From Proteromonas lacertae (Eukaryota): 64,000 nucleotides of DNA. Every line of letters starts with the position of its first letter. Positions within the stretch are counted from its first letter, which is position 1. Below the pieces are notes generated by a model. It was not told where the DNA came from, searched no databases, and saw nothing but the letters and a program-made list of their open reading frames with translations. The translations under genes and the position numbers were made by a program. Location of the stretch: positions 248,001 through 312,000 of the forward strand of contig NGBS01000871.1 of assembly GCA_002245135.1 (NCBI GenBank), in the 5' to 3' direction. Below, in pieces: positions 5,016 through 53,600 of this stretch.

Positions 5016-5114
5016 AAGCACTTATTTATAGTTTTACATAACATTTTTGTATGTACAAAAAATACCAAACCATAATCGAGCTTATTATATCTTTTTTACT
5101 TATTTTCAAAATTA

Positions 5115-22872: not shown

Positions 22873-25800
22873 ATGGAATATACGGTTTATTTAACTATTA
22901 AAGGTAAACAGCCATATCCATTTAAGATAGAACAATCATGTACATGTAATAATTTCATTCAAAATGTTGCAGTATAAAAATTACATTTTACACTATTTTA
23001 GAGACAATTTAACTTATCTCCTCAACATCTATCTTTGAAAAATTGTTCACAAACACCTATTCCAAGTAGTGATATTCCCATCTCATCGTTTATTAAAGAT
23101 AATGAGATTATTTTTGTTTCTTTCCAACAACAACAACTATCTACACAGCCACAATATCAACAGTTGTATAGTCAACCGCAACAACAATTATCACAATCAT
23201 ATTCTTATCAACAACCTCAAACTCAGCCATATCAAACACACAATCATACTGAACCTCAACAATCATCAATCCCTATTTCAAAACAACCTCCATCTACATC
23301 ACCTCAACAACCATATATACAACCAACTCAACAACAACAAAAGGTTAATAAGTATATACAAATTGTACAGAATATGAATCCTGTTTATATTCCTTTCAAT
23401 TATAATGGACAAACTAATTATACAAACCAATATCCTTATATCAATAACCAACAACCTGTAACAGCTTATCAAAATACTTCAAATGTTATACCTCCTCAAT
23501 CAAATTATCAATATCCAAATCCACCTCCTCCTGTTCCTCCTCCATCACCACCATATGATGTAAATCCTCAACAACTTCTTCCAGCATTTGGTGTAAATCC
23601 ACTACTACCACCTCCACCTCCAACATTTGATAATTCAAATCCTCCCCTTCCATCTTCGATAAGCGAAGAACAACAGCATATAGTTGATAATAAACCTGAA
23701 GATAATAATGGTAATATACCAACTGAAAATAAACATATGAAAGGAATGAGAAGAAGAAGAAAAATAAATCCTGATTCAGATTCAGATAGTTCATATCATT
23801 CAGAGGAAAATAGTGAAGGTGATAACAATGAAGAGAATGAAGAAGAAAATGAAATGAATAATATTCTAGAAGAAACTTCAAATGTGAAAGCTGATTATAC
23901 AATTAACGATGTAATTCATTGTCATCCATTTGTGGAATATTCTATTTTGATTCAATATAATGATACTAAAAAAATTGATTGTCTTTCATTAGATAATTTA
24001 TACATTAGGAATGATGATGGAAAAGTATATCCATCATTACCATCAACATTAGTTTGTGGATTAGATTATGTAGTAAAAGATTCTATAATTGGCTTTCTAT
24101 ATAGACAAGATAATAAATATAAAAATTTCACATTACCATTATTAGAAACAAGAAGTGATAATAACATTATTCCTGAAAAGATATATTTCCATCAAATATG
24201 TGAATGTAAAGAAAAATCCTATCGTTTTCCATCATTAAGAAATAAATCTGTTACTTGTCATAGTGATATAATGATTATTCACTCTCCAGATGAATCATTG
24301 GAAGTAATTGATGAAGATACAGGAAAGAAAATAATCTGTGAACCATATAGAGATGTAACAGCTATAAATAAAAGGTCTCAAGCTGTTTTAACTGAAAATG
24401 CATTAAAAAGAATGAAAATCATCGAAGATGGAATAGAAAAGAATACTCCATTATTAGTTGAAGGTAAAACTTCAAGTGCCAAAACATTCACCGTTGAACA
24501 AGTGTGTATGAATGGTCAAATTCCATTAATTCGATATAATTTCAGTCCATCATCAGTAATTGATGAATTGATAGGAAATGTGATAATAAAAACAATAGAT
24601 GGTAAATCAACTCCAATATTCCAATTAGGTCCATTTTCTGAAGCTTTTATTGAAGGAAAAGTGATATTATTGGATGAATTATCATTAGCCAATGCTGAAG
24701 TAGTTCAAGCAATAATAAATGTTTTAGATTCTCATGAATTATATGTTGATTCAATAGGAAGTGGTTATACAAAATATGATATGAATCCTAGTTTCAGAAT
24801 AATAGCAACTCAAAATCCAGCTGGTTCAATATATAAAAGAACCAAAATTGATGAAACAATGATGTCTAGATTCAGATATATTGATTCAAGATTCTTCCCA
24901 GAAATAACAAGAGAAGAATTAAACAAGATATTAGAATCAATTGGAAAAATCTCAAAAAGTAATGTGAATGATATTTTAAATTTTCATCAAAATGCATTAG
25001 CCAATCATCCAGATAGAGTTTATACATTGAGAGATTGTATTAGAGCAAATACTCTAATAACATCAGCTAAATGTTCTTCAAAAATAGCTGCAGAGATTGT
25101 TTATGGTGATATATTACTAACAAGTAAACTGAATTTATCTAAATCACCTGAAATTAGTAAATCTACTTTATTTCCATTGAATGAAACTATTTGGAATAAT
25201 CTTTGTCAATATATTGAAGCAATATTCAAATCAGGTTGTCATATTTTATTGTGTAGTGAGAATGAATTTACAGCTAGAAAGTATGTATTATCATATCTCC
25301 AATCTATTCATGATAATGAAAAACTCAATATTATAAGATGTACAAGTGGAACAACAACTGAGAATTTGGTTGGAATGTTTCAATTAGAAGGAAATAATAA
25401 TAATGAAGAAAATGGAAATGATATTAAAATAGCCCCAAAATGGCATGATTCTCCTTTAGTAAAAAGTATAATCAATGGAGAAACTTGTTTTCTTCAATCC
25501 TTAGATAATATGAAATCTAATTCAATCGAAAGATTGAATTCTTTATTAGAAATAATACCAAATGATGGATGTAAACAGAAAGTGAGATTTGATGAAAGAA
25601 TTGAAGAACCAGAAATTGATATTCATCCAAATTTCAGAATAATTGCAAGTGTTTCAAAAAATGGTTTAATGAAATTCTCTCCTGCTTTGATTAATAGATT
25701 TATATTGGTTAATTTACCAGATGAAAAAATAGAAAATGCATTTGAAGAAAGTGATGAGAATAAAAAAGAGATGATAAATACTTTCTGTGAATCATTCTTC

Positions 25801-28800
25801 AAAGAAGATAGATATATATGTATGAATGAATTAACAAAATATTATGAAACACCCTCAAAATATTTAGAATGTTATGAAGGATTATTTGAAGGAGTTGAAG
25901 AAAGAAGAGAGTTATTAAGTGAAATATTAATATCATTAATCACACACAGATCAATAGCTTTATTTGGACATAAAGAAAGTGGTAAAAGTTATTTAATAGA
26001 ACAACTGTTGAATGGAAGTTATAATCCAATAAAATCTCTAGCATTATATATCTCTCCAGAAACTGAAATTGATCAATTGTTAGGATTCTTCACAAAGGAT
26101 AGAGAATTTCATCGAGGTGTAGTTATATCAGCAATGGAAGAAGGTGTAGTATTGGTGATTGAACATTCTCATTTATTATCAAGTGATATATTACAATTGT
26201 TTGAAACATTTATTGATCCAACCACTAATGAATTTGAATATATGAATAAAACCTTCAAAATACATCCATTATTCAGAGTGATATTCAATTTCACAACATC
26301 TGGTGATAGAAAACCAAATCAATCAATACCTTGTTATTGTCCAAGTTTTGAAATAAAAGAATATACCAATGAAGAAAAGAGTAAGATATTTGACTTACCA
26401 AAAGAAATATTTGAAAATGATTTATTCTCAATGACTCAACTTCATTATTTAATTCCATTAAAATCAATATATAAAGAAAAAGATAAGTTCCCTTATTTGC
26501 TTGGTTTATTTTGTGATGAAAGTAAAATATCATTATTAGATGAGATGTTCGAAGATATAATCAAAGAAGTAACAATAGAAACATTTCTGAAAAGTAAAAT
26601 TCAAATCACAAAAGAAAAGAATCATTATACTCTATCAAAGTATAACATATCAACAACATGTGAATTAAATAAAATATCTGATAATGTTGATAATTGGTAT
26701 TTGGAAAGTCTATTTCGATTATCGTTATTATCATCAAGTGATTGTCAAGCACCAGTTTTATATATCACATGTGAATCATTCCAAATGTCTTTAATGAATG
26801 ATTTATATGAAGATAATGGAAGATTTATCGAATTATCAAGATCTTATGATTCTTCTTATTTGATAGGAAGTACTTTAATTTCCAGTCCATCTGAGTTATT
26901 AACAACAATGAATCAAATAGCAACATCATATAAAAAATACAATAATCATAATCCAAGTGATGCATTTGTTAAATGGAAGAATAATATGGAGGAAATAATG
27001 AAATATAATGAAGAATCTTGCTTATTCTTCAAACCTGGTTTGATAATGACAAGTTTTATAACTGATGAAACATTGATATTAAATCATTTTGATCTTATAA
27101 GTGAATCTGTTTTACCCAGAATAACAGGATTATTGGAATTATACAAAGGAAATATGTTTTATAATAAAAATGATAATAATCAATATGTTTATTCAGTTTA
27201 TGAAGATATAATGAATCAAATAAAAGATATAAGGAGTTTTATTCCACCCAAGATGATAGGAGTAATAAGTGATAGTGATTTTAATAGAATTAATGATAAA
27301 TCTTTATTCTTGCCAATCTATTGTCCAAATCCAACAGAAACAGAATTAATCAAAAGATTTCCATTATGTAAAGATATAATTGGATACCCATTACACTTTT
27401 ACATATTGGAGGATAGAATACAGAAGTATTTTAGTAATCCAATTAATTCAATGTTTTATTTAGATTATATATCAAGAAATCATCAATCAAGATATGAATT
27501 ACTAAGATCTAAGAAAGCCAAATCTGTTTCTCAACCATTACAAAGACTATTGAAATTGGATGATAAGAATTTTGAAGAAGTATCAGCGATTTTGGATGTT
27601 GATAAATTATTGAAAGAAGTATTTAGTGTTAGTTTTATGGATGTGTATGATAAGATTCAAGATTATTTGAATAAGAATATTCAAGAATCATTTTATATAG
27701 TTCCAACCACAGTTCATATGATATTGACATTATTATTAGGAATACAATCGAATTTACCAGTGATATTAGAAGGTGATCCAGGTGTTGGTAAATCAGTAAC
27801 AGCTCAACATGTTTATAATGCTTTGGATATTCCAATATTCAGATTTAATTTATCACCAAATATAACAATTCAAGAATTATTTGGTAGTTTAACAATTGGA
27901 TCTGATCAAAATCAAGAAAGAAAACCAGGTATAATAACAACAGAATTAGAAAATCATAAAGATGATGAAGAAATAGGATTTCTATTTGATGAATTGAATT
28001 TAGCTCCACCTGATGTATTGGATGAGTTTTACACATTTATAAAATGTTGTACTGATAAGAATAAAACAACATTTGATGCTCCTGGATATAGGAGAATAGA
28101 ATTGCCAAAGAAAGTTCATATAATTTGTACTTTAAATCCTGCTTCAATGACAAGTAACAGATCTTCTTTATCAAGTAATTTATTAACAATTAGTTTATAC
28201 CATAATGATATATCATATCAATTATCTGAATTATTGACAATAGGCAAACAAATATTAAAGCAAAGTGAAAATCCAGAAGATGGAGCTGAAGATATAGAAA
28301 AGTTCAATCAAATAATCAATCAATTATTTGAACAATCCTTAAGACTTGGAAAACAAATAGGTATTGGATTTACATTGAGAGAACCAATCAAAGCAATAGA
28401 AGTGTGGAGAAGTTTTGATATAAAAGCTGATATAAAAGCAGCTTTATGGTTGACATTCGGATGTAAATACAATCAGAAGGATATTCAAGAAATTGAGAAA
28501 GTTTTATCAATCAATAAGGAAATGAATATAAAACTGATAGGTAAAGAAGAAAATACATTATTAACAGGTCCTTGGTCAATTCCATTCTCAAAAGAATCTT
28601 GTGGATTTGATTTTAATCAATTCACAACCTCAGAAAAATCCTTAGCTTATAAAATAGCTTTATCATATATATCCAAAAGAGCAGTGATATTATACGGTCC
28701 ATCTCCATCTGGTAAAAGTTATGTATTAAGAAGATTAGCAGAATTATATAATCAGACATTGATAGTTGTTCCATTGAATAGTGAAAGTACAAGTTCTTTA

Positions 28801-31800
28801 TTGATAGGTAGAATGGAATTAGTTTCATCTGGAAAAGAAAAGAAAACTTCATTAGAGTTTAAGAAAGGTCCATTATTAACAGCTATAGAAAAAGGATGTT
28901 GGATAGTAATAGAAGATATAAATCTAGCAAGTGGTGATATTTTGGAAAGATTAAACTCATTATGTGAAGAAAATCCAGAATTGAAAATAACTGAATATAA
29001 TGGTGAAAATGGAGATGAAGAAATAAGATATACAAGAGATAATCCCAAAGCTGAATATAGAATTCATGATAATTTCCGAATTTATTTCTCTTTTTCAACA
29101 ACCAATCTAGCAACAATTCCAGCTCCATTGTTAAGTCGTTGTATAGAGATATATGCTAATCCATTAAACACAGTAGAATCTGCTCAAGAATTGTGTTATA
29201 TAAAAGAGAGAGAAAATGAAGTGAAATGTTTTGGAAAAGAAATTCCAATTAATTTTAGAAATATACTGAGATATTTGAATAATCCAAATGATGAAAGCTA
29301 TGAATTTGAATTTCATATGAGAAGAGAATCAAAATATCCAATATTAGTAAAACCTCCAGAAACTAATACATCGAATATAAGTATATTAATCAAAAGATTG
29401 AAAGATAAGAATGTTGATAAAATTGAAGATTTGATAGAACAAGTAATGAATGATAGTATATTGATGTTTAATAGGAAAGGAAGTAATAGTGAACATTCCC
29501 AAATATACCAAATAATCAATTCTAAGTACACATCATCATTATTGTATTATCCACTTTATCAGATATATTCAACAGTGAATAAGAATTTTGGTAAAAATAC
29601 AACAATAATTGAATGTAATTCAATTCTTCAAAGATGGATTTTATTCAAATATTTCAAAATATCTTCATCAGACAAGATGAAATATATTCACAAATGTCCT
29701 TTGATTGATATAAAAGATAATGAAATATGTAAATTGAAAGAATATTATAAATTAAAAAAAGATTCAGATGAGTTGTTGTTATGTTATATAATAGGTAAAG
29801 ATAAAGTATTATTGAATAATAAAGTTTCTCAATGGAATAGATATCAAAATGTGTTTAGTGATATAATTGAAAAGATAGATGAATTAGGTCCAATAGAAGT
29901 AATAGAGAATATAATAAACAAAACACTTCGATTATTGAATAAATCCTCATATTTATTAAGAAAATCAAAAGGAAATGAAGTTATAACAAATTCTTTATTT
30001 AATGATATTCAAAGAATATATGATGAATTTGATGAAGCAATGAAAGATACAAGTTTAAAACTGAATAGATTCTATGGAATGGATAAATATTTTGAAGAAT
30101 ATTCTACATTTTATACTGATATGAAAGGATCAAAAAATACATCAATGATAAGAGATCATAAAAAGAGAGAAAAAGTAATGAATTATAACAAAATCAAAAG
30201 AGAATTAACAAATATAAAGAGTGGATTTGAAATGGATTTTGAAGAAAAAAACAATATAGAAGGAATAGATGATGATGCTTATGATTTATTAAAAGATATA
30301 AAACAAATAAAAGACACAGGAATAGATTATAATGAAATTGAAGATAAAGAAGCAAGATTGTATTTAGAATGTAGTCATTTCTTATATGCGTTAGAAGTGT
30401 CAAATACAGCATCAGCAATAGTTCAATATTATGAATTATTGAGAGAATTAGAAATATCAAAAGATAAGTTAATTCATGATTTTGATAATTTTAAAGTTAT
30501 GAAAGAATCTTTAGAAATATATGTGACAGCTAGAATCAATTATTATGCTAAAACTGTAGATTTGAATTATTATTATTCCATAATTAAAGAAGCTCCATTT
30601 TATATTCATAGAAAAATAACTCAACAACAATTAGATAGTGCAATAAATACTTTATTAGATAATGAATGGATTAAATCGAAACAAACATTTATCAATGGGA
30701 GAGTTGATTATGATTTATCACATATAACTGATAAATGTAATACAGATTATTATGAAGATAATTTGGATTTACAAGCATTGAGAATTATTAGATATGTAGA
30801 AGAAGAAAATGAAAGAGAATTGGATTTACATAAGATATTATCATTAGAACCATACAATTACACAAGTAAATGTGAACCAGGAACAATAGTATCATCATCT
30901 GATTTAAAATATGAATATCAAATTAGAAATTATAATATGAAAAAAGGACCTTTGTTTTATATCTATGAAGGAATATATAATTCATCATTACCATTTCATG
31001 ATAAATTAGTTTTAATATGTCCATTATTACACAATGAATTATCAGATATTGTGTTAGAAATATTGAGTGAAAAATCATTGAAAGATTTCTTTAAAACAAA
31101 TCCTATTCTAAAATCAATAGATGATATAATTCCAAAAGCAGATGAATATCTTGAAAATGAATATAAAAATAGAATAGAAGGAATAGATCAGAAGATAAAG
31201 AGATTAGAAAAAGAGTATAATGAATTGAAGAATAATAAAAACAAATTAGGAAACTATTGCATTCTCATGGAAGATAAATTAAAAAGAGGTGCTAAAAAAG
31301 TTGTTGAAAGAGAAAATAAAGAATTTGAAAAGAAATATGGATCAATAGAATCAATAGAGAAAGCTAAGAATTATATTTTGACATTATATTATCATGAATC
31401 AATAAATCATATGATTGAAAAATCAAGTCCACATGATTCTGAATTATCAGAAAATGATATTAAAAAATTATTAAATTCAAAACCAGACTCAATTTATTTT
31501 AAAGTTGCTGTTTTTAGATATAAAAAATATTCTAGTTTCAAATTTAAACTTCATTGTGGTGATGATTCAGTATTGGGATTTACAAAACATGAAATAAATA
31601 TTTCTTCTAAAGAAGGAATGTTTAATAAAGTTAAAAATTATTTTGGTTATGGTGATGAAAAGAAAGAATTATATGTTGTTTTGCCATTATCAACTTATGA
31701 TGTGGATGTTGAAATAACAAAACATAAATGTGATGCGGAAATGGAATATAAATATTATCCATTTAATTCAGATAATAAAGATGATTATATCTCTCGTTCT

Positions 31801-34800
31801 TTGATGTTAAATATGATAAAATTCTGTAAAGAAAATAAGATTAGATGTGAAACATCATTGAATAAAACATTAATAGAAAAATATTCATTCTTACTTAAAG
31901 GTGGAAATAAATCTGGAAGTTTAAATAAAGATTATAGATTATATAAATTTGATAATAATTATGGATATAATGGAATTAATCTACATAATTCATATTTTGA
32001 TTCAGATTTAAACATATTTCCTATTAACCAAATGTTCACTTACTTTAAACTTTCAAAATGTATTTCAATACCAAGAAATGCACCAAAAGCAAATAAAACT
32101 GAAATGAGTAGATTAACAGAAGATATATATAAAATATTTATCAAAAAGTCATTTGCTTCTATAAATGATTATTATTCATATATTACAAATACTTCTACAT
32201 ACGTAAAAGGAATAAGGAATGATTTTGGAGATATAATAGAAGAGATAAATAAATCTAAAAAGCAACTAGATGGGATTGTAAAGAAATATTCAATAAAGCT
32301 TCAAGAATTAGAAAATGCAAAGAAAGAAAAAGAGAGTATTGATAGATTAAAACCAATACAATCAAAAGTGTTTATTCCAGAAGGATATGCATATAAAAGA
32401 GATAATTCACAATCAAAGAAAGAAAAAATGAAATTAGCTAACATGATATTTATAACGAATATCAAAGATCATGAATTTATTCTTCCTGAAGATGATTATA
32501 TTGAATTACCTCCATTAGTCAAATCCAGATCTAATCCAATTATAACAATTCCAATAATCAATCCATCTAACATCAATATATCTGTTGAATCAAAGAAATG
32601 TCATGTTAGAATAACACCATCAAGTGAATTAGAAATAATGATTGATAATCCAGAAGTAGGAGAAATAGAAATACCAATAAAAATATCAATTCCAAACAAA
32701 TCTGTAGAAATGAAAGTAAAATTTGAAGTGAAAGAATATGATGGTGTTTTTTTCACAAATTATCAATGTGGAATTGATGAAAGTCATCCAAATAGATTAA
32801 TCTATACATGTGAATATAATGATTCTCTATTTGAATTAACATGGTTTGATGAAAAAGGAAAACATACAAAACAACATAATAGGAAAGATGATATTAAAAT
32901 GGAAGTTGATGATCATTATTCTGTTTATTATGTTTCTTCTTTAAATCAACCATTAGGTTTTAAATTTATTGAGAAAAAAGGAAGATGGAAATTATATAAT
33001 CCTGATAAAGAATCTCCATTAAATGATATTGTTGGTTTACCAAAAGATATAGTTGATGTAGATGAAAAATTAAATCAAATACAACAAAAGAATAGTTTGA
33101 CAGAATATGTTAATGGTTTAAAGAATATATTCTTATCAAAACTATCAAATAATGAAGATGTAAGTGATAAAATTGATCAAATAATTTCCTATTTATATCA
33201 TATTGCCAGTAATAAAGAAGATTATCTGAATAGTATATTCAAATTAGTAAATGATAATCTTCAATACATAAACACTCAAAATCATCCATTAATATGGAAA
33301 CAAAAACGAGAATTAGGAAATGAAGTAAGAAAGAATATAAACAATCCACAAAATGATAGAAAGAAAGCAGTTGCTGAAGTAAAACAGAACGACAATATTA
33401 CATTATTAACAAGAGTTAATAAAGTAGATAATAACAATGGAAAAGGAAAATTAGTGAAATTGAGTAAAAGAGAGTGTGATAAAGATATAAATGTTATAGC
33501 AAGTGCTTTTATAGGTGATATGAATCCTGAAATAGAAGATAAAGTAAATGAAGAAAATGAAAATGATGAAAATGAGAATGAGATGAATGAAGAGGATATA
33601 GAAAGACAGAAAGATAATTTGAGAGATATGAATGTAAGAGATATATTAGAACATTTCAAAGCGATGACATTAGATGAATATTTCAAATCAATAGATGAAA
33701 GAAGAAATGATATAGATGCAACAAAGATAATGAAATTGAATGAAGGAGAGAATAGAATTCCATTAACAGAATTTAAACCAATAAATGAAATTGATACTAA
33801 TATGATGAAAGAATATAGAAAATCATTATCGAAATATGTTTATTATATGACAAATGAAATAAGAAATCTAAATTCAAAGAGAGAAAACCCATTACAACTG
33901 ATTCAAACATTGACAATAATAATTGATACATCATTTACACATAAGAAATACAAAGCCAGATTAAGATCATTAACAGCATGTATATTATTATTGATTTGTA
34001 AAGAGTTGAATATATCAACCCAAATATTAGCATCATTATCTCATGGTCAATGTATATCAATAGCTGAATATAAAGAAGATTTATATATAAAAATGAGTAG
34101 AATATTTGATTTAGAAGGAGTAGAGAAAATGCCTTCAACTCCATTAGATGTATTTTCATATCCTGAAGATACACCAACAAATAATCCAAACCATGATCAT
34201 ATGTATATAATAGTAAGTGATTGTTTTTCAGAACAATTATTAACTTCCAATGATGATGTATGTAATTTCATAAGAAGTAATTTGAAAGTATTATTTTTGA
34301 TGAGAATTAATGGAAATAAAGATCATCCAGATGAATTATTATCACCTGATAATTCTGCAATGATGAAAAAATGTGTTGAATACAATTTTACATCAAATAA
34401 CAATATAATGATTGATAATGAAAGATGTTTTGAAGATATGAAATATTTTGTGAAATTATATCCTTTCTTCTATTCTGAAAGAGTAATAGAATATAATATA
34501 CCAAAAGATATAAAACCCCAATCCAATCCAAATATAAATGATAATTCAAAATCAATAGGAATAGGATTATATGAAGTAAAAGAAAAAGATATATATGCAG
34601 TTTTAATTGATGATAGTAAATATCATGGAAATACAATAAAACTACCAGCTGTTGGTGATAAAGATTTAGATTTCATAAGTCATGGAAATGGTAATGTTGT
34701 ATTACATAAATATTTGACAGAGAATATAAAGAGTAATTTGTTATTTTATCCATTGAATTCTTCTTTAACAATTCCAAACAAACCAACAACATGGATAGCT

Positions 34801-37302
34801 AGTGTATCTGGAACATCAATTCATTTCCAGAATTTCATAAAGTTCATAATAACAGGAATAAGTGATGGAAAATTTTTCAAAAAGAAAACAGGAAATAAGA
34901 TAAGATCTTATAGTTTATCAATAGTGTTAGATGCATCTTCATTCACAATGAGTCCAATCAATATATCTCATACATTAAAGACATTTTATACCTTATTAAG
35001 AGGAATATGTGAAGTGAATGTTCCAGCCATAGATATTTGGATTGCAACTGATCAAATAAACAAAATAGGAACAGGTTTAAACTCAACTGATGCTTGGAGT
35101 CCAATAATAATGAGTTCAATAAATCAAATAGTAGAAACATGTAAAGATCATCCAATTGAAGTGACTTGTTTATGTGAAACATTACAATATTCAATAGCAA
35201 CTTGTACATCCAGACCATATAGTCCAATAGTATTTGTATTAACCAATAATTGTGTCATGAATAAAGAAATGAAGATAAGATTGAAAGAAGTGATAAAATC
35301 AACTGATTGTAATATAATTGGAATGGGAGTTGGATATAATTTATATGTTGATAATATGAAGAATTTATTTCCTCATTATTTATGGAGTTATAATCCTGAT
35401 AATTTAGACAAAGTAATATCTTCAATGAGTAATCCAATCATAAAAGAGAAAGAGAAAGGGGATTGGCAAAAGTGTCCATATCCATTTGAAAATGGTTCAA
35501 TCAACGATTTAACAATGCCAGTTTCAATAATGGATGAAATAATGGTGAAATTTATAAGTGAATTATATTCTGCGTATGAATTTAGAGCTAAGTTCTTTAA
35601 TGTATTAAAAACCAGAGATGGAGATATAAATGCTTTAGAAGAGAATGTGGCAAGTAATGAATATGATTTAGGTAAAGATGGTGCATTTAAAGGATTTAAT
35701 GTATTGATAGTGATATTATATTTATGTCGTGGAATAAGAGATTCAATAACAGGAAATATAATAGATCCAGATATAACTGATGCTATATTACAGAATGGAA
35801 AAGCTGATGAAAAAGGAGTAAATCATAGTCCAGTAAAGAAACTTGAAGAAAAAGGCTTTATGGTGTTAGTAGTTTATGATTATTATACAGCAATTCAAGA
35901 AATAGCTACAAAACAATATAGAAGTGTAATAGTAACATGTAGTGATGGAACTGGAGTATTTCCTAAAGAAGCAGCTAATACAGAATTTGGTTATTTATAT
36001 TCATTTATTGATGTATTAAAACAGTTTTATGAATGTGGAGGAGGTATATTTTGGATGTTAGAAAACTATCCATATACTTATGAAGCAGATATATTCTTTG
36101 AGAGAGTATATGGAATAAAAGAATTATGTAAAGATGTGAATATAGCTGGTGGAAAGACAATGAGTCGAGATGTAAATGCAACAGCAGGTCATTTCTTAAC
36201 AGTTGGACAAGATGCATTCCAATTTAATATAAACAATTTGAAGATTGATACAGGTTTGAAATATATATATGAAGGTAAGACTTTAGCTTGTTTAGATGAA
36301 GAAAAACTTGGAGAAAAAGGTTTTAAGAAGTTTGCATGTGAATCAACAGGTAAAGCTTCAATAATGTTGAAAGAACAAGAAGGAAATAAAGGTAAAATGG
36401 TGATAGATACAGCTTCAACGAAATTATTTTTAGAATTCACAAGTGATGGAACAAGTAGATGGATTAGTAATGCTGTTGTTTGGTTATTGAATATTGATAG
36501 TTATTTCTCATGTAATAGATTTAATGGAAATATTCCAAATACATTACCAATTCAAGTTGATATGAGTAAGATAACAATTGATAATTCTTATGTAAAGAGA
36601 GTATTGACAAAACCAGTAAATTTCTGTTTGACTGTTGTAATGGATTGTACTAGATCAATGAGACCTTATATTGAAAGTACAAAGAATCTTATTATGTCAT
36701 TATTCAATGAATTAAATGAAATAAAAAGAAAAGCTGGTGTTGATGCTTCATCAAAGATATGTGCACAATTCGTTGGATATGGCGATTTCTATGATGATCC
36801 ACCAAAAGGAGATAAATGTATTTACAAACAGTCTGGAGTTATGGAGGATATTCAAAAGTTAATAGAATTTATGAAAGATGTAAAAGATGATGCAGAAAGT
36901 GGTGAAGATGTAATAGAAGATTTGAATGATGGCTTTGATTGTGCTGTTAATAATATAAGATATTTAACAGATAATTATAAACATATGATATTAGTTGCAG
37001 GAGATTTTCCTGGTCATGGTGATGGAAATGGTATTGTTAGTGATTCTTTTCCATCAGAACATCCAATTAAGCATGTTAGTTGGGATAGTTTTTGGAGTGA
37101 CGTATGTGATAGATTTAAAAAAATAGATGCTGATGTTCATTGCTTATGTATTAACAATTGTGGTATTTCAAATACAATGGATAGAATAAGAAAATTCTAT
37201 CCAAAAGTTAAAGATTACCGAACAAATGATGCTTCACAGTTTTCCAAAGTAATGAGAGAAGCAATAGTATCTCAATACAAAGCATATGTAGGAGTTACAT
37301 AG
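22873..37302 (+). CDS. Giant (~4,799 aa) UBL / six-AAA+ (midasin/MoxR-like) / multi-vWA / GATase-like protein
   Basis: Exon 1 22873-22971, 30-nt intron 22972-23001, then one open frame to TAG 37302. Walker A/B pairs: GKTSSAKT/ILLDE, GHKESGKS/LVIEH, GDPGVGKS/FLFDE, GPSPSGKS/IVIED, plus two degenerate modules. vWA-like IIIDTS, IVLDASSF and VVMDCTRSM. Confidence 0.85.
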
Positions 37303-39384: not shown

Positions 39385-41488
39385 ATGAAGAAATTTTTGA
39401 TATTTTTAATTGGTATGTATATAATTATATTAATGAATGCATATAATTGAATAATATGCATTGAATCTATATTATAAGACTGTTTTGTAATTTTTTATAG
39501 TTTTCAGTTTAGTAGTTTTCGCGAAAAGTGAAAAGAAAAGTGACGATGGTGATGAAGAATCCGAAAAAGAGAGTTTAGGAAGTGTAATTGGTATAGATTT
39601 AGGTACAACTTACAGTTGTGTTGGTGTATTCCAAAATGGTCATGTAGATATAATCGCGAATGACCAAGGTAATCGTATTACTCCAAGTTATGTAGCTTGG
39701 GATGGTGATGATCGTTTAATAGGTGATGCTGCCAAGAATCAAGCTACAATCAATCCTGAAAGAACAGTGTTTGATATAAAACGTTTAATTGGTCGAAAAT
39801 TTGGTGATAAGACAGTTCAACACGATATGAAGATGTGGCCTTTCCATGTAGTTGATAAAGGTAGCAAGCCTTTTATTCGTGTGAATATCAAAGGTGAAGA
39901 TAAAGATTTCAGTCCTGAAGAAATCAGTGCAATGGTTTTAGGTAAAATGAGAACAATCGCTGAGAACTATTTAGGTAAAGAAATCAAGAATGCTGTAGTA
40001 ACAGTTCCAGCCTATTTCAACGATGCTCAAAGACAAGCTACAAAGGATGCAGGTACAATTAGTGGTATGACAGTTCGTCGTATAATTAATGAACCAACAG
40101 CAGCAGCTATTGCTTATGGTTTAGATAAGAAAGGAGGTGAAAATAACATTTTAGTATTTGATTTAGGTGGTGGTACATTTGATGTAACTTTATTAACAAT
40201 CGATAATGGTGTATTTGAAGTATTAGCAACAAATGGTGATACTCATTTAGGTGGTGAAGATTTTGATCAACGAGTGATGGCTTATTTAATGAAAATCTTC
40301 CAAAAGAAATATAACAAAGATATGTCAAAAGATAAGAGATCAATTCAAAAATTACGTAAAGAAGTTGAAAGAGTAAAGAGAATGTTAAGTAGTCAACATC
40401 AAGCTCGTGTAGAAGTTGAAAGTTTATATGATGGTGTAGATTTCAGTGAAACCTTAACTCGAGCTAAATTTGAAGAATTAAATATCGATTTATTCAAAAA
40501 GACATTAGAACCAGTAAAGAAAGTATTAGAAGATGGTGATATGAAGAAACAAGATGTAAATGAGATAGTGTTGGTAGGTGGTTCAACTCGTATTCCAAAA
40601 GTTCAACAATTATTAAAAGATTATTTCAATGGTAAAGAATTAAACAAAGGTATAAATCCTGATGAAGCTGTAGCTTATGGTGCTGCAGTTCAAGGAGGTA
40701 TTTTAAGTGGAGATGCTAGTGAACAAACAAAAGATATCTTATTATTAGATGTAACTCCATTGAGTTTAGGTATTGAAACTGTTGGTGGAGTAATGACAGT
40801 GTTAATCAAAAGAAACAGTGTAATTCCAACCAAGAAAAGTCAAATCTTCAGTACATATCAAGATAATCAACCAGGTGTTTTAATCCAAGTATTTGAAGGT
40901 GAAAGATCTATGACAAAAGATAATCATTTATTAGGTAAATTTGAATTAAGTGGAATTCCTCCAGCTCCTCGTGGTCAACCTCAAATCGAAGTAACTTTTG
41001 AAATCGATGCCAATGGTATATTACAAGTAAGTGCTGAAGATAAAGGTACAGGTAAGAGTGAAAAGATCACAATAACAGCTGAGAAAGGTCGATTAAGTGA
41101 TGATGAAATCGAGAGAATGGTAAAAGAAGCTGAAGAATTTGCTGATGAAGATAAGAAGACAAAAGAACGTGTAGATAAGAAGAATAGTTTAGAAGGTTAT
41201 GCTTATAATTTAAAGAATACTTTGAATGATAAAGAAAAAGGTGTAGCTGATAAACTAAGTGAAGATGAAAAAGAGACCTTAGAAAAAGCTGTAAAAGAGA
41301 CATTAGATTGGTTAGATGAACATGATGAAGCTGATGCTGAAGAATATGAAGAAAAACAAAAAGAATTAGAAAGTATAGCTAATCCAATAATGGCTAAGTT
41401 TGGAGGAGGTGGTGCAGGTGAAGCTCCTGGTGGTGGTGCTCCAGGTGGTAGTGATGGAAGTGATGAAGATTTTAATGAAGAATTGTAA
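39385..41488 (+). CDS. BiP: ER luminal Hsp70 (BiP/GRP78), copy 1, 671 aa
   Basis: Signal peptide [17 protein letters not shown] split by intron 39413-39500. [28 protein letters not shown] and complete NBD/SBD. C-terminal NEEL. Confidence 0.97.
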
Positions 41489-41771: not shown

Positions 41772-43559
41772 ATGAATTCAAAAATCTTAGGCTATTCAGT
41801 TAAAACGTTATTGGGAAGGGGTTCTTTTGGTGAAGTTTATATGGTAGATAAGGATGGAGAAATATATGCATGTAAAAAACTGACGTCCAGAATGAATCAT
41901 GAAACAAGAAAAGCTTTACACCAGGAAGTATATTTAGCTTCATTTTATAAAATAGTTGAAAGCTTTACAAACCATTTCTAATAGATATATAGTTCATTAT
42001 GTCGATTCATTCGTTTACCAAAAAAGTACACACATAATAATGGAATATTGTCCTAGTGATATAGATAAAATAATCAGAGAATTAAGAACTACAGGCAGAA
42101 GGCTTACTGAGAGAGGTATTTTAAATATACTCGTTCAGTGTTTATTTGGATTAAGTTATTTACATGAAATTAATTATTTACACAGAGACATAAAACCAGG
42201 AAACCTTCTGATTACCTGTGATGGAGTAACAATATTAGGAGATTTAGGATTGACTAAGATGAATATAGACGATATAAGAAGACAACAGACGTTATGTGGT
42301 ACACCATCGTATATGGCACCAGAAGTATTAGCAAAGAGGTGTTATAATTCAGTAATTGATATTTGGAGTTTAGGAACAACGATATATGAGTTATGTACAT
42401 TAGAGCCATTATTTACAGGTCAATACCATGAACTATACGAGAAACAGAAAAAAGGACCAGTAATTCCAATACCAAATATATATTCAAGTGAATTAAAAAC
42501 AATCATTTTACATATGTTAATATATGAAGAATGTAATAGGCCAACAGTGGATGAATTATTATCTAATCCATATATAAAGGAATATATTAATAACAATATG
42601 GGTAAAGCATATGATAATGTAATGTTACAGGATGTTCAATCATTATTTGCAGAATCAGATTCATCATCAATGTCTGGAGTATTTTTATTATTAATATTAT
42701 TATGAATAGTCTTATAGAGATATCACACATACAACAGCTAGACCTCCTCCACCAATCATATTTGAATAACCTTTATCCTCTTGTTCAGATTGTTCAATAA
42801 TATTCAATGGAAATAATAATAATAATAATAATAATAAGAAAAGTGATTCACAAGATGAAGAAAGTATTGAAATTGATAGTGATGGTATAGAATCAGAAGT
42901 TCCAATATCTGATGTAATATCACTCTATAATACTCCTCATTACTTTATTGATTATTATCATAATAAGATGCCTGGACATAGTGGAAAATTGTATAGAAAC
43001 TTGGTAGTTGTTGGAGGTGAAGATGAAAGGATGATTGACTTTATAAATATTTATAATGATGGTTGTGTATATATTATTAATATATTATTATTAATATAGT
43101 TGTTATTTCCATGTCAAAGTAAATATGTATATTGTGATTGTGGGGTTAATCATACAATTTCTCCATTACAATTATCAGAAATTGACTCAATTCAAGAATT
43201 AATACAATCTACAATAAAATATTATGGAAAATTCCTTGGTTATAAGATAGAGTATTATTATATCATTTTATTTCATTTTTAATAGTCTAACACATGATAA
43301 AGTAATGGTTTTAGCTGAAAGAGATGAAAAGTTATTCAATTATGCAAATCGTCCAGAACAACATCATTTACTTGCTAGATTTTTTGAATTTCTTCAATTA
43401 TTTGATTTGACTAAAATACAAGAGCAATTATTTATTCATATTTATTGGTCAATTAAACATAATCCAATTTTATTTAAGAATAGTGGAAATGCATTGTTAT
43501 CTCTTCTTACTCCTTCATTAAGATCAGATTTCAGTATTCCATCCAGTGGTAAATTATAA
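41772..43559 (+). CDS. NEK/NIMA-like Ser/Thr kinase; C-terminal extension interrupted by an in-frame TAA at 42767
   Basis: LGRGSFGEV, YACKK, HRDIKPGN, GDLGL, CGTPSYMAPE and DIWSLG. Introns 41928-41955, 42679-42709, 43067-43099 and 43252-43285 keep one frame except for the TAA. Confidence 0.8.
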
Positions 43560-43729: not shown

Positions 43730-46051
43730 AGAAACAAAATTGTGTTATATAATATCTTTTACAATTCTTCATTAAAATCTTCATCACTTCCATCACTACC
43801 ACCTGGAGCACCACCACCAGGAGCTTCACCTGCACCACCTCCTCCAAACTTAGCCATTATTGGATTAGCTATACTTTCTAATTCTTTTTGTTTTTCTTCA
43901 TATTCTTCAGCATCAGCTTCATCATGTTCATCTAACCAATCTAATGTCTCTTTTACAGCTTTTTCTAAGGTCTCTTTTTCATCTTCACTTAGTTTATCAG
44001 CTACACCTTTTTCTTTATCATTCAAAGTATTCTTTAAATTATAAGCATAACCTTCTAAACTATTCTTCTTATCTACACGTTCTTTTGTCTTCTTATCTTC
44101 ATCAGCAAATTCTTCAGCTTCTTTTACCATTCTCTCGATTTCATCATCACTTAATCGACCTTTCTCAGCTGTTATTGTGATCTTTTCACTCTTACCTGTA
44201 CCTTTATCTTCAGCACTTACTTGTAATATACCATTGGCATCGATTTCAAAAGTTACTTCGATTTGAGGTTGACCACGAGGAGCTGGAGGAATTCCACTTA
44301 ATTCAAATTTACCTAATAAATGATTATCTTTTGTCATAGATCTTTCACCTTCAAATACTTGGATTAAAACACCTGGTTGATTATCTTGATATGTACTGAA
44401 GATTTGACTTTTCTTGGTTGGAATTACACTGTTTCTTTTGATTAACACTGTCATTACTCCACCAACAGTTTCAATACCTAAACTCAATGGAGTTACATCT
44501 AATAATAAGATATCTTTTGTTTGTTCACTAGCATCTCCACTTAAAATACCTCCTTGAACTGCAGCACCATAAGCTACAGCTTCATCAGGATTTATACCTT
44601 TGTTTAATTCTTTACCATTGAAATAATCTTTTAATAATTGTTGAACTTTTGGAATACGAGTTGAACCACCTACCAACACTATCTCATTTACATCTTGTTT
44701 CTTCATATCACCATCTTCTAATACTTTCTTTACTGGTTCTAATGTCTTTTTGAATAAATCGATATTTAATTCTTCAAATTTAGCTCGAGTTAAGGTTTCA
44801 CTGAAATCTACACCATCATATAAACTTTCAACTTCTACACGAGCTTGATGTTGACTACTTAACATTCTCTTTACTCTTTCAACTTCTTTACGTAATTTTT
44901 GAATTGATCTCTTATCTTTTGACATATCTTTGTTATATTTCTTTTGGAAGATTTTCATTAAATAAGCCATCACTCGTTGATCAAAATCTTCACCACCTAA
45001 ATGAGTATCACCATTTGTTGCTAATACTTCAAATACACCATTATCGATTGTTAATAAAGTTACATCAAATGTACCACCACCTAAATCAAATACTAAAATG
45101 TTATTTTCACCTCCTTTCTTATCTAAACCATAAGCAATAGCTGCTGCTGTTGGTTCATTAATTATACGACGAACTGTCATACCACTAATTGTACCTGCAT
45201 CCTTTGTAGCTTGTCTTTGAGCATCGTTGAAATAGGCTGGAACTGTTACTACAGCATTCTTGATTTCTTTACCTAAATAGTTCTCAGCGATTGTTCTCAT
45301 TTTACCTAAAACCATTGCACTGATTTCTTCAGGACTGAAATCTTTATCTTCACCTTTGATATTCACACGAATAAAAGGCTTGCTACCTTTATCAACTACA
45401 TGGAAAGGCCACATCTTCATATCGTGTTGAACTGTCTTATCACCAAATTTTCGACCAATTAAACGTTTTATATCAAATACTGTTCTTTCAGGATTGATTG
45501 TAGCTTGATTCTTGGCAGCATCACCTATTAAACGATCATCACCATCCCAAGCTACATAACTTGGAGTAATACGATTACCTTGGTCATTCGCAATTATATC
45601 TACATGACCATTTTGGAATACACCAACACAACTGTAAGTTGTACCTAAATCTATACCAATTACACTTCCTAAACTCTCTTTTTCGGATTCTTCATCACCA
45701 TCGTCACTTTTCTTTTCACTTTTCGCGAAAACTACTAAACTGAAAACTATAAAAAATTACAAAACAGTCTTATAATATAGATTCAATGCATATTATTCAA
45801 TTATATGCATTCATTAATATAACTATATACATACCAATTAAAAATATCAAAAATTTCTTCATATTTGAGATGAAATTAATGAAAATAGAAAATGAAACTA
45901 TTTAATTAATAAACAAATACTAATTAAGCCTCATTTCACTTGTCACAATTCTATTGGTTTAAAGAATATTCTAAAGTTCTTTTTTCTTTTTTTTTATTCT
46001 TATACACTTTCTAGATCGTTCTTTATTGTTCAAATCACAAGATTTTCAATT
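43730..46051 (-). repeat. Right arm of the ~2.32-kb inverted repeat
   Basis: Reverse complement of 39197-41517. Confidence 0.95.
43759..45862 (-). CDS. BiP: ER luminal Hsp70 (BiP/GRP78), copy 2
   Basis: Same 2104-nt span, same 88-nt intron and same protein as copy 1; the two coding differences seen are synonymous. Confidence 0.97.
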
Positions 46052-50636: not shown

Positions 50637-53600
50637 TCAACTGGTAGTAATAGTCTTTCTGAATTTATAACAATGATAGGCAGATAATATTTTAGTAACT
50701 GAAACATAATGCTGAATATTATATTCAATATCCTTATCAGTAACATGCTTCAGCTTTTTAAATTTCTTTTTCCAGGCTTTATTGGCTCTATGTTCTGGTG
50801 GTAAATCTAAATACACGTCATTTGCACCCTTTTCTTTCAAATCATCTTCTACAATTCTTCTGGCACATGCTAAAACAACATCACTGAAATAAACTCTTGG
50901 TTCATCACCACCTCTTTTATACATAGGAATTCGAAGTTTTGAGATTCTTTCTCTCAGATCTGGTCCAATTATTCCTTCACCAAAGCCCATTGGAGGTGGA
51001 ATAAGTATAAATAAATCATCGACTGAAGATAGAGGAATTGAACACTTTGCATCAACATCAATTTCTATTTAATAAAAGATATATATAATAATAAATATAC
51101 GATTCCAAGCTGTTACAAATTGATCATATTGTTCTGGAGTTAATTTTGCATTTTCTGATGAAGATGTATTACCAAATCCATCAAGAATAACTCCAATAAA
51201 TAATTGTAAAAGTACAAATGTTACTACTGTGGTAAAACCAAAGAAAAATATATAAGCCATCCAAGTACCACATCCATTTAATGGAATACAATCAGGACTA
51301 TCATTAAAACCACACATATGTGGATTATATGTTAAATTAGGATCACATTCTTCACTATTCAAACAATCATACATCAATAAATCCCAAATTTCACCAGTAG
51401 CACATCTGAATAGCGTTAAGAATGATCTACCAAATGATCGGAAATGAATTGCATAATTCAAAACTACACCATTTTTTACTGTTGCAAATAATTGAACTCC
51501 CATCACAGCAAAGATGAAAAACATTAATATTAAAATACCTGTTACATTTGCCATTGATGGTAAAGTCAAAACTAATGTATTGAATAATGTTCGAAGTGCT
51601 TTTGCAGATTGAACTAATCTAAATACTCTACCAATTCTAAATGTTCTTACAACTAATAATGCACTAAGATTTGCATTACCCATCGTCAATTGTAATATAA
51701 TACCAATATCAGAACCAATAGTAACTAAGAAATCAAATATATTCCAACCATCACTAAAATATTGTTTTAAACCAAGTCCAAGTAACTTCAATATCATTTC
51801 TATTGTGAAAAGACTAGCAAATATATAATTCAATATTTCTACAGCTTTTGTAAACTTATGTGGTTCACCAAATGATTTAGCTGCCATGAAAACTGTGTTA
51901 ATGATAATGGAAATCATTATAACCCAATCAAAAGCAGTTGATCTTATCAAATTGAAACATCTTTTTCTTATATATTCTATAATATTATATAGTAAAGAAA
52001 TAAATATAAAAATATACGTGTGGGTCTTTTGTAAGGTTTTTGTACTTTCATTGCTAATAATGCTTCTTGCATTTCTACCCATTCTCTTTGTTCATCTGTT
52101 AAAAACACATGATCTTTACCTAATTTTCTTTTCATATTATTGAAATTATCAATCACAACACCAGTAAATAGATTCAATACGAAGAATGCACCAACAACAA
52201 TAAATGCCATAAAAAAGAATGACCAAGCAATTTGACTATCAGGAATAGGTTGCATACCAATTCCTCTTCCATCTGTAGCTATATACATTACATCCATCCA
52301 TCCTTCTGTTGTAATTAATTGAAAGAATGTTGATAATGCTTGAAATACATTATTAAAGTTTTGTGGACAATGAAATTCTTCATTCCATTCACATCCCATC
52401 CATTCACAAACAGCTTTTGATTTTTTACCTTTATAACTTCCATCACCCCATAATCTTTCTGCATCTGTTAAATTACTATAATATCTTGGATATGTAATTA
52501 AATCAACTTGATCTTCACTTAATGCATCAAAACAATCACCCATACAACCACCATTCAAACCTTTCATATAATTAACACCAACAATTGAGAATATTAAGAA
52601 TATCAACAATGCAATCAATGCAACATTGGCAATACCTGGCACTGATGATATTAATGCATTAACAACTAATTTCAAACCAGGATTTCTACTTACCATTCTT
52701 AAAGGTCTTAATGCTCTAAATGTACGTAATGCTCTTAAAGCAGTTAAATTTGAACTTACACTTACTGATGGAATTAAAGCTAATATTGAAACAATAACTA
52801 CAAAACAATCAAGAAAATTCCAAGCACTTCTTAAATAAGCATGTTGACCTAGAATCAAACCATAAGTTATCATTTTCATTACCATTTCAATGGCAAATAA
52901 TACAGTCAAAACAATATCAAGAACTTCTAAAATATCAGAAATAACACTATCAGGATCACGAAGTGGATTTTCTATTGCTAAACATACTGAACTAATCAAA
53001 ATAAGTGCAAGAACAATATTATCAAATATTTTAGTTTGTACCATTCCAGCTATATGTTCTCTTAACCAATTATCTGGTGATAATAAAAAGAATGCTTTTC
53101 CTTCAATTTTTATTTTTGTATCATCAGTTACTGACATGTTTGTCATAAAATAATCAGCTGTAACATCATCACCACTATCACTACTCATAGAAGTACCTGA
53201 AGACATTCTACTGTTACTTCTTCTGCTATTGCTACTTTTATTACTCTATTTACGTGACAAATAAATAGTTATATATATATATATATATATATATACTTTT
53301 CTACTTGTTCTTCTACTTACCATTGACTTATGACTAGGTGTAGCTATTCCATATTCAATTTTTTGTTTTTTTAAATAAGCAGCTGCTGTTAATTGTTTCA
53401 TTTGTAATTTTCTCTTATCTTCAGCTGTAAGATTAGAGGATGGTGTAAATATTGCTGCAACTGTTGATGCTCTCTATTTTAATATTTATATTATGAATAT
53501 ATATATTTATTTATACTCTTGCAACTGCTTTACCATATATTTTTGATGAAGGAATTGATTGTATTTGTGGACTTGGAGTAACTGGCGTCATTGTACCAGT

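What the first reader, a model, noticed from the sequence alone, without database searches (positions are those of the whole stretch)
22873..37302. Giant UBL / hexa-AAA+ / multi-vWA / GATase-like polyprotein that is not a canonical midasin
Seen: a hidden first exon adds a ~75-aa ubiquitin-like-looking domain (MEYTVYLTIKGKQPYPFKIEQ...IKDNEIIFV). Then come a Q/P-rich linker and six tandem AAA modules. Four keep Walker A lysines (~24451, ~25964, ~27769, ~28693) and two have lost them. After a long helical/coiled-coil region there are vWA-like units at ~33915 and ~34921, an extra alpha/beta domain (~35650-36500) and a final vWA (VVMDCTRSM..., ~36630-37300). Established: Rea1/midasin has six AAA modules, a long D/E-rich tract and one C-terminal MIDAS domain that binds UBL domains of other proteins; MoxR-clade AAA ATPases work with vWA adaptors. 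Inference: this is a self-contained remodelling or conflict/immunity machine carrying its own UBL and several vWA adaptors, possibly an undescribed family.
Basis: partly seen in the sequence, partly recalled or inferred. Interest (0 to 1): 0.85.

Follow-up and report, generated by a model that had tools for sequence, protein, structure and literature searches.

The report
Giant midasin-like motor of gut anaerobes
This real gene encodes a 4,800-residue ring-shaped ATP motor of an apparently undescribed family in oxygen-avoiding protists and gut fungi; it is related to, but separate from, the ribosome-building motor midasin, and it likely uses three gripping domains to pull other proteins out of complexes.

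Summary
Real, and not a canonical midasin. Exon 2 (23002-37302) is one open frame of 4,766 codons; a likely 30-nt intron adds 33 residues (no RNA check possible). Six MoxR/midasin-type AAA modules, three vWA domains and a class I GATase-like fold are supported. That fold is closest to ThuA/GIFT scaffolds and lacks the catalytic triad. The UBL is supported in the closest orthologue but inconclusive here, and is not family-wide. The protein belongs to a multi-copy family seen in Blastocystis (4 copies in one strain), Tritrichomonas, fornicates and the gut fungus Orpinomyces. It forms a clade apart from MDN1 (100/100). Only AAA1 has a complete ATPase site in 16 of 16 members, as in dynein and opposite to Mdn1; AAA5 is also complete here. 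The Rea1 AAA2 insert and the D/E tract are absent. The second vWA is the midasin MIDAS homologue with a degenerate metal site; the last vWA keeps one. Best reading: a Rea1-like protein extractor with non-ribosomal targets, possibly for defence. Not found in print in my searches; this scan noted a similar family twice before on other DNA. A separate MDN1 in this genome could not be checked.

The parts
22873..22971 (+). Exon 1 (33 codons), first half of the putative ubiquitin-like domain
   Evidence: ATG in A-rich context; in-frame join; not RNA-confirmed
22972..23001 (+). Putative 30-nt GT..AG intron with two in-frame stops
   Evidence: 5' GTAT is the commonest start among 76 ORF-joining candidates in the window (30 of 76); modal Blastocystis intron is 30 nt (PMC5608401 passage)
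23002..37302 (+). Exon 2: uninterrupted 4,766-codon frame ending in TAG
22873..23127 (+). Putative UBL domain (spans the intron)
   Evidence: exon-2 half: Pfam Sde2_N_Ubi E 0.098; closest relative P0001 has two Pfam ubiquitin stretches at its N-terminus, E 5.7e-8; own profile test inconclusive
23128..23898 (+). Q/P-rich and acidic low-complexity linker with one basic cluster at 23749
   Evidence: sequence
23899..24351 (+). Small pre-ring domain conserved in the Blastocystis clade
   Evidence: 31-33% identity to P0001 and P0002
24364..25176 (+). AAA1: complete site (Walker A K 24481, Walker B DE, sensor 1 N, sensor 2 R; arginine finger from AAA2 at 25696)
   Evidence: all six residues in 16 of 16 members
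25204..25836 (+). AAA2: no Walker A lysine, no long Rea1-type H2 insert; donates the arginine finger
25879..26646 (+). AAA3: Walker A K 25984 but no catalytic Glu and no arginine finger here; complete in 9 of 16 members, none of them of the Blastocystis clade
26674..27636 (+). AAA4: degenerate module
27664..28581 (+). AAA5: complete site here (K 27790, DE, N, R; arginine finger from AAA6 at 29137)
   Evidence: catalytic Glu in 10 of 16 members
28603..29301 (+). AAA6: Walker A K 28714 (16 of 16), Walker B not conserved
29302..33768 (+). About 1,500-aa fast-evolving linker; no match to MDN1 linkers or to non-Blastocystis members
   Evidence: 25% to P0001; profile hits only in 4 of 24 tested proteins, all Blastocystis-like
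33769..34581 (+). vWA1, divergent; keeps the Asp of strands 1 and 4
   Evidence: hhalign 86% to vWA2; Atlas vWA/CobT_C 0.92-0.93; no Pfam hit
34744..35511 (+). vWA2, homologue of the midasin MIDAS domain including its N-terminal extension; metal site degenerate here (D-S-F, N)
   Evidence: profile hits MDN1 C-termini; hhalign 86%; Z 14.4-14.5 to Rea1/MDN1 MIDAS
35614..36516 (+). ThuA/GIFT-type class I GATase-like domain without catalytic triad; most conserved tail part (47% to P0001)
36604..37299 (+). vWA3 with intact MIDAS-type residues (D-x-T-x-S, E, D)
   Evidence: Z up to 17.6; 49-50 of 52 related domains keep each residue

Best explanation
This gene encodes a member of a separate, multi-copy family of single-chain six-AAA giants, sister to midasin, that likely works as an ATP-driven protein extractor on targets that are probably not the ribosome factors of midasin. 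Shown: six AAA modules, with complete ATPase motifs only at AAA1 (family-wide) and AAA5 (this copy), then a long linker, vWA1, a MIDAS-homologous vWA2, a ThuA/GIFT-type domain and vWA3. Inferred steps: (1) the modules close into a ring as in Rea1 and dynein; (2) vWA3, which keeps its metal ligands, grips an acidic residue of a target, while vWA1 and the triad-less GIFT-type domain add binding surface; (3) vWA2, which keeps the midasin-specific N-terminal extension but not the metal site, docks the tail on the ring; (4) hydrolysis at AAA1, tuned by a second site (AAA5 in Blastocystis, AAA3 in most other members), pulls the target from its complex; (5) the variable N-terminus (UBL, kinase or nothing) sets regulation or hand-over, for example to the proteasome. 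The host is likely an AT-rich Blastocystis-like protist.
For: Family and MDN1 are separate clades, 100/99 (33 rows) and 100/100 under a mixture model (20 rows), with the fast-evolving Mikrocytos midasin staying in MDN1. There are 4 copies in Blastocystis sp. Blastoise, 3 in Tritrichomonas musculus and 2 in T. foetus. The AAA1 site is invariant in 16 of 16, whereas Mdn1 needs AAA2-5 and lacks Walker B at AAA1 (PMC5116814 passages; control 9 of 9). The best 400-aa D/E fraction is 0.14-0.22 in 16 members against 0.31-0.46 in 10 midasins. Folds. MoxR-clade ATPases generally work with vWA adaptors (PMC7159879 and PMC3495828 passages). IFT52's GIFT domain lacks catalytic residues and binds proteins (PMC4818760 passages). 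The same domain order recurs in human-gut contigs, as a single frame of over 4,174 codons in 2 of the 3 loci long enough to show it.
Against: No target, localisation or activity is shown; every mechanistic step rests on analogy. A separate MDN1 in this genome or in any family-bearing genome was not demonstrated, and the trees are unrooted and hold no labelled stramenopile or metamonad MDN1. The register of AAA1-3 against MDN1 D1-3 is ambiguous. vWA3 is absent or replaced in several members and metal ligands of vWA2 are intact in most (D 113/113, S 99, S 87, D 90 of 113), so the gripping domain may differ between clades. One of three long gut loci is interrupted by stops. With only two complete sites the ring may act as a switch, as proposed for RNF213 (PMC7311170 passages), and not as a processive puller.
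Confidence: 0.62

Rival explanations
1. A cell-autonomous defence machine, an anaerobe counterpart of RNF213 or of MoxR-vWA conflict systems: the vWA/GIFT tail senses a viral or bacterial protein, the two-site ring switches, and the UBL or kinase relays the signal. This is compatible with the best explanation but more specific.
For: Lineage-specific expansions; swapped N-termini; fast linker; patchy spread, with Orpinomyces grouping with Chilomastix at 100/100; two-site wiring like RNF213; MoxR-vWA cores of conflict systems.
Against: No RING, nuclease, protease or other effector hit in the window protein; no membrane segment; expansions are modest (2-4 seen per genome); no expression data.
Confidence: 0.2
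2. A highly diverged, duplicated true midasin that has taken over pre-60S remodelling in anaerobes, using vWA3 in place of the decayed MIDAS.
For: Best PDB match is Rea1 (E 2e-31); vWA2 is the MIDAS homologue with its basic extension; modules 4-6 are in MDN1 register; one member carries the UniRef name Midasin; no canonical MDN1 was shown in these hosts.
Against: Essential Mdn1 sites are lost; no AAA2 insert (67-87 against 148-195 residues); no D/E tract; several copies per genome; module scores at most 82 bits against 260 for Mikrocytos midasin; separate clade.
Confidence: 0.1
3. A metal- or cofactor-insertion chaperone for anaerobic enzymes, like NorQ/NorD or CobS/CobT fused into one chain.
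For: All named carriers are anaerobes; vWA1 resembles CobT_C/CoxE vWA by features; weak PDB hits to NorQ, CbbQ and CobS.
Against: These likenesses are generic to the MoxR clade; no organelle-targeting signal seen; N-terminal UBL or kinase and copy number fit poorly; no prokaryotic relative in one pattern scan.
Confidence: 0.05
4. The GATase-like domain is an active hydrolase of a new type, making this an unfold-and-cut machine.
For: It is the most conserved tail domain; E4424 (0.97), T4427 (0.91), D4469 (0.85), N4490 (0.82) are kept among 97 sequences.
Against: No Cys or His reaches 70% conservation; top folds are ThuA, S1P/IFT52/OST48 GIFT domains (Z 15-16) above catalytic GATases (Z about 12).
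Confidence: 0.03

Closest known systems
Midasin / Rea1 / MDN1
   Same: Single chain with six MoxR-clade AAA modules, a long linker and a MIDAS-homologous vWA with the midasin-type N-terminal extension; similar size.
   Different: Complete sites at AAA1 and AAA5 instead of AAA2-5; no AAA2 H2 insert; no D/E tract; unrelated linker; three vWA plus a GIFT-type domain; several copies per genome; separate clade.
Dynein heavy chain
   Same: Six AAA modules with AAA1 as the conserved complete site; AAA3 complete in most non-Blastocystis members.
   Different: No stalk between AAA4 and AAA5, no N-terminal tail; carries vWA domains.
RNF213 / mysterin
   Same: Giant six-AAA chain with only two complete sites and a C-terminal accessory region.
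   Different: RNF213's sites are AAA3 and AAA4 and AAA1 is dead; no E3/RING module detected here.
Prokaryotic MoxR-vWA systems (NorQ/NorD, CobS/CobT, RavA/ViaA, ternary conflict systems)
   Same: MoxR-clade ATPase coupled to vWA adaptors.
   Different: Six modules and adaptors fused in one eukaryotic chain; no effector gene or domain identified.
ThuA-like and GIFT domains (IFT52-N, OST48/Wbp1, site-1 protease)
   Same: Class I GATase-like fold without catalytic triad (Z 15.2-16.2).
   Different: Only 11-16% identity; no Pfam match; I found no report of one attached to an AAA-vWA motor.

Membership tests
Midasin/MDN1 | Six tandem MoxR-clade AAA modules in one chain | tested here: met
Midasin/MDN1 | [quoted passage not shown] | tested here: not met
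   AAA1 complete in 16/16; AAA2 and AAA4 degenerate; definition PMC5116814; control 9/9
Midasin/MDN1 | Long H2 insert in AAA2 | tested here: not met
   Walker A to B distance 77 here, 67-87 in 16 members, against 148-195 in 9 midasins
Midasin/MDN1 | Long D/E-rich tract before the MIDAS | tested here: not met
   best 400-aa window 0.20 against 0.31-0.46
Midasin/MDN1 | One C-terminal MIDAS domain with intact metal site | tested here: not met
   homologue present but degenerate and followed by two more domains
Midasin/MDN1 | Groups with MDN1 in a ring phylogeny | tested here: not met
   (AAA5+6 only; unrooted)
Midasin/MDN1 | Midasin lid Pfam domains | tested here: inconclusive
   only PF17865 at E 0.1
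Midasin/MDN1 | Sole orthologue in its genome | not testable with these tools
   no genome held; relatives are multi-copy
Midasin/MDN1 | Removes Rsa4/Ytm1 from pre-60S | not testable with these tools
   needs experiment
Dynein heavy chain | Stalk and microtubule-binding domain between AAA4 and AAA5 | tested here: not met
   modules 4 and 5 abut
RNF213 | Active sites at AAA3/AAA4, dead AAA1 | tested here: not met
   against PMC7311170
RNF213 | C-terminal E3 module with RING | tested here: inconclusive
   no Pfam hit; linker not folded
Class I glutamine amidotransferase (enzyme) | Fold | tested here: met
Class I glutamine amidotransferase (enzyme) | Cys-His-Glu triad | tested here: not met
   no Cys or His at 70% or more among 97 sequences
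ThuA/GIFT-type domain | Closest structural neighbours | tested here: met
   ThuA 16.2, S1P 15.7, IFT52-N 15.4, OST48 15.2, tied within 1 Z
ThuA/GIFT-type domain | Sequence-family membership | tested here: inconclusive
   no Pfam hit; Atlas DUF4960 0.95 with 168 shared features
Ubiquitin-like domain | Profile or fold match of the window's own N-terminus | tested here: inconclusive
   E 0.098 for the exon-2 half; 6.9 bits, with at least 5 of 500 shuffles as high; closest relative positive
vWA domain | Fold or profile for units 1, 2 and 3 | tested here: met
   vWA2 and vWA3 by fold; vWA1 by profile and features only
MoxR-vWA ternary conflict systems | Third component and effector domains | tested here: inconclusive
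   none recognised; N-termini vary

The most novel reading that the evidence does not exclude
A fourth class of single-chain six-AAA machine beside dynein, midasin and RNF213: midasin body, dynein-like AAA1 wiring and a vWA-vWA-GIFT-vWA sensor tail, passed sideways among gut anaerobes (metamonads, Blastocystis, rumen fungi) as a cell-autonomous defence or quality-control extractor.
Probability: 0.3. Interest if true: 0.85.

Novelty: new variant of a known kind. Interest (0 to 1): 0.62.

Why it matters
Dynein, midasin and RNF213 are the familiar single-chain six-AAA machines (own knowledge). A further conserved family, with its own ATPase wiring and adaptor tail and expanded in common gut protists including human-gut Blastocystis-like contigs, would bear on how these motors evolved from MoxR-vWA pairs. 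It gives a natural test of how ring wiring sets function. It also flags a likely mis-annotation: one member is named Midasin in UniRef, the rest hypothetical or AAA+ domain proteins.

Tried and rejected
No genome was held, so MDN1 and paralogues in this genome were not searched. No RNA holder was listed, so the intron is unchecked. Complex prediction of the closest relative's second UBL with its vWA2-GIFT-vWA3 tail gave no verdict (0.01; alignment not used). Pfam found nothing on vWA1, vWA2, the GIFT-type domain or vWA3 of the window; PDB sequence search of the exon-2 UBL half gave only an irrelevant hit. A three-sequence UBL profile did not separate the spliced peptide clearly from shuffles. 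Pattern scans found no relative among prokaryotic genomes (0 of 252 stretches) or viral contigs (0 of 70); each used two patterns, so this is weak. Seven weak vWA hits (P0287-P0293) matched none of my segment profiles. A possible in-frame 30-nt intron at 27434 was rejected because relatives align through it. The window intron scan shows no peak at exactly 30 nt: lengths spread, mostly 31-38 for GTAT/GTAA starts. Blastocystis plus two T. musculus copies was 99 in the quick tree but only 91/85 under the mixture model, so that transfer is not established. A supplement search of PMC5608401 for midasin gave 0 hits but covered only about 3 of 33 files; unseen supplements may list a Blastocystis MDN1 or this family. 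PMC117441 was not held. The linker and vWA1 were not folded.
Full report
Gene. The window is AT-rich (22-31% GC per 2 kb). One stop-free frame runs 23002-37302, 4,766 codons, ending in TAG. An ATG at 22873 opens 33 codons; removing the 30-nt GT..AG segment 22972-23001, which holds two stops, joins them in frame, for 4,799 aa. Two other in-frame splice choices exist (36 and 117 nt). GTAT is the commonest 5' end among 76 ORF-joining intron candidates in the window (30 of 76), but their lengths do not peak at 30. The intron is likely, not proven. Residue numbers below count from 23002.

Host (inference). The closest named protein is from Blastocystis sp. Blastoise (P0001, collinear, 33% and 28% identity). 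The window protein sits in an all-Blastocystis-labelled clade (100/100). The Blastocystis poly(A) motif occurs 12 times against 6.6 expected (2 of 100 shuffles). Blastocystis introns are modally 30 nt and 85-95% of genes have introns (PMC5608401, passages), so a 14.3-kb exon is unusual.

Ring. Pfam gives AAA_5 (5 stretches, E 2e-56) and the PDB gives Rea1 (E 2e-31, patchy). I aligned the rings of the window protein and 15 full-length or near full-length relatives. AAA1 keeps Walker A Lys, Walker B Asp-Glu, sensor 1, sensor 2 and the arginine finger from AAA2 in 16 of 16. AAA2 has no Walker A lysine. AAA3 has the catalytic Glu in 9 of 16 and the finger in 11 of 16, but neither in the five Blastocystis-clade rows. 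AAA5 is complete in the window (Glu in 10 of 16, finger 11 of 16). AAA6 keeps the lysine (16 of 16) without a conserved Walker B. Mdn1 is the reverse: AAA2-5 are conserved and required, AAA1 and AAA6 lack Walker B (PMC5116814, passages; 9 of 9 controls for D1-D5). In dynein AAA1 is the main site, and RNF213 has only AAA3 and AAA4 (PMC7311170, passages). The long AAA2 insert of Rea1 is absent (67-87 against 148-195 residues between Walker motifs). Modules 4-6 best match MDN1 D4-D6; modules 1-3 are ambiguous. Against MDN1 module profiles the window scores at most 82 bits, while the very divergent Mikrocytos midasin reaches 260.

Tail. No D/E tract: best 400-aa window 0.14-0.22 in 16 members, 0.31-0.46 in 10 midasins. 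The linker profile hit 4 of 24 tested proteins, none a midasin. A model of the last 852 aa (pLDDT 66.7) shows vWA2 and vWA3 as vWA folds (Z up to 17.6; Rea1/MDN1 MIDAS Z 14.4-14.5 on vWA2). vWA2 matches midasin C-termini including the N-terminal extension, which in Rea1 carries extra structural elements and an NLS (PMC6920918, passages). Its metal residues are mostly intact family-wide (113 domains) but read D-S-F and N here; vWA3 keeps D, T, S, E, D as do 49-50 of 52 related domains. vWA1 is supported by hhalign (86%) and Atlas features (0.93), with no Pfam hit. The domain between vWA2 and vWA3 folds confidently (pLDDT 89.5). Its best matches are ThuA-like (Z 16.2, rmsd 3.1, 210 aligned), site-1 protease (15.7), IFT52-N (15.4) and OST48 (15.2), above catalytic GATases at about 12. 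No Cys or His is conserved among 97 sequences. IFT52-N likewise lacks catalytic residues and binds proteins (PMC4818760, passages).

UBL. P0001 has two Pfam ubiquitin stretches at its N-terminus (E 5.7e-8); the window's exon-2 half gives E 0.098 to a UBL family; my own profile test was inconclusive. Other members begin close to the ring, or carry a kinase by source name and sequence. The UBL is plausible but an accessory.

Family. A profile of the tail found 87 representatives at E 1e-30 or better among 1.84 billion. Of those 900 aa or longer, most show vWA2-GIFT, often with vWA3, and the longest carry the ring. Of 28 proteins looked up for names, named family members come from Blastocystis sp. 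Blastoise (4), Tritrichomonas musculus (3), T. foetus (2), Kipferlia, Aduncisulcus and Dysnectes; add Blastocystis subtype 1, Chilomastix and Orpinomyces. Many members are unnamed. Ten metagenome loci carry the tail; three are long enough to show ring through vWA3, two of them in one frame. AAA5+6 trees separate family from MDN1 (100/99, 33 rows; 100/100, mixture model, 20 rows), with a second odd clade (P0004, Copromyxa P0043) between them. They are unrooted and use two modules. In the tail tree Orpinomyces groups with Chilomastix (100/100, 26 rows), which suggests transfer among gut anaerobes; old duplication with loss is not excluded.

Mechanism. MoxR-clade ATPases generally act through vWA adaptors (PMC7159879, PMC3495828, passages). 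I therefore read this as a Rea1-like extractor: vWA3 grips, vWA2 docks on the ring, AAA1 powers, a second site tunes, and the N-terminus regulates. All of these steps are inferred. A defence role fits the expansions and swapped N-termini but no effector was found.

Novelty. Nine paper searches (listings and abstract starts only) showed no description of this family. PMC9896827 only lists a 'Midasin-like protein' in a SNP table (passage). The library lacks most subscription papers. Two earlier notes of this scan describe a similar family in other genomes; they are not independent support and I could not compare sequences. Verdict: new variant of a known kind, interest 0.62.

Noticed in passing
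window 39491-41488 (+) and 43759-45756 (-): Two BiP/Hsp70 genes in inverted orientation, differing at 2 of 1,998 bases, flank a kinase ORF at 41956-42705: a recent inverted duplication or gene conversion.
   Followed up: partly
window 5076-8141 (+): 1,021-aa ORF with two tandem Hsp70 nucleotide-binding domains (Pfam HSP70, 3 stretches), an unusual double-Hsp70.
   Followed up: partly
window 51069-56149 (-): Multi-exon gene that looks like a four-domain voltage-gated Na/Ca channel, by eye.
   Followed up: no
window 57572-59339 (-) and 62876-63907 (-): A papain-like cysteine protease gene (by eye) and a class 3 lipase (Pfam).
   Followed up: no
window 293-2878 (-): Long ORF with K/E/N/D-rich repeats.
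   Followed up: no
proteins P0004, P0043 (Copromyxa), P0003: Further non-canonical midasin-like giants of 6,700-7,800 aa: P0004 and P0043 form their own clade with vWA but no GIFT-type domain; P0003 has six or more similar AAA modules late in the chain.
   Followed up: partly
proteins P0179, P0228: The GIFT-type domain also occurs before a vWA in proteins where no AAA module was detected, once after a calponin-homology domain.
   Followed up: partly
proteins P0154, P0165: Shrunken members of about 2,300-2,500 aa keep ring, vWA1 and vWA2 but lack most of the linker and the GIFT-type domain.
   Followed up: no
L009 2-12544: Family copy interrupted by two in-frame stops; pseudogene or short in-frame introns.
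   Followed up: no
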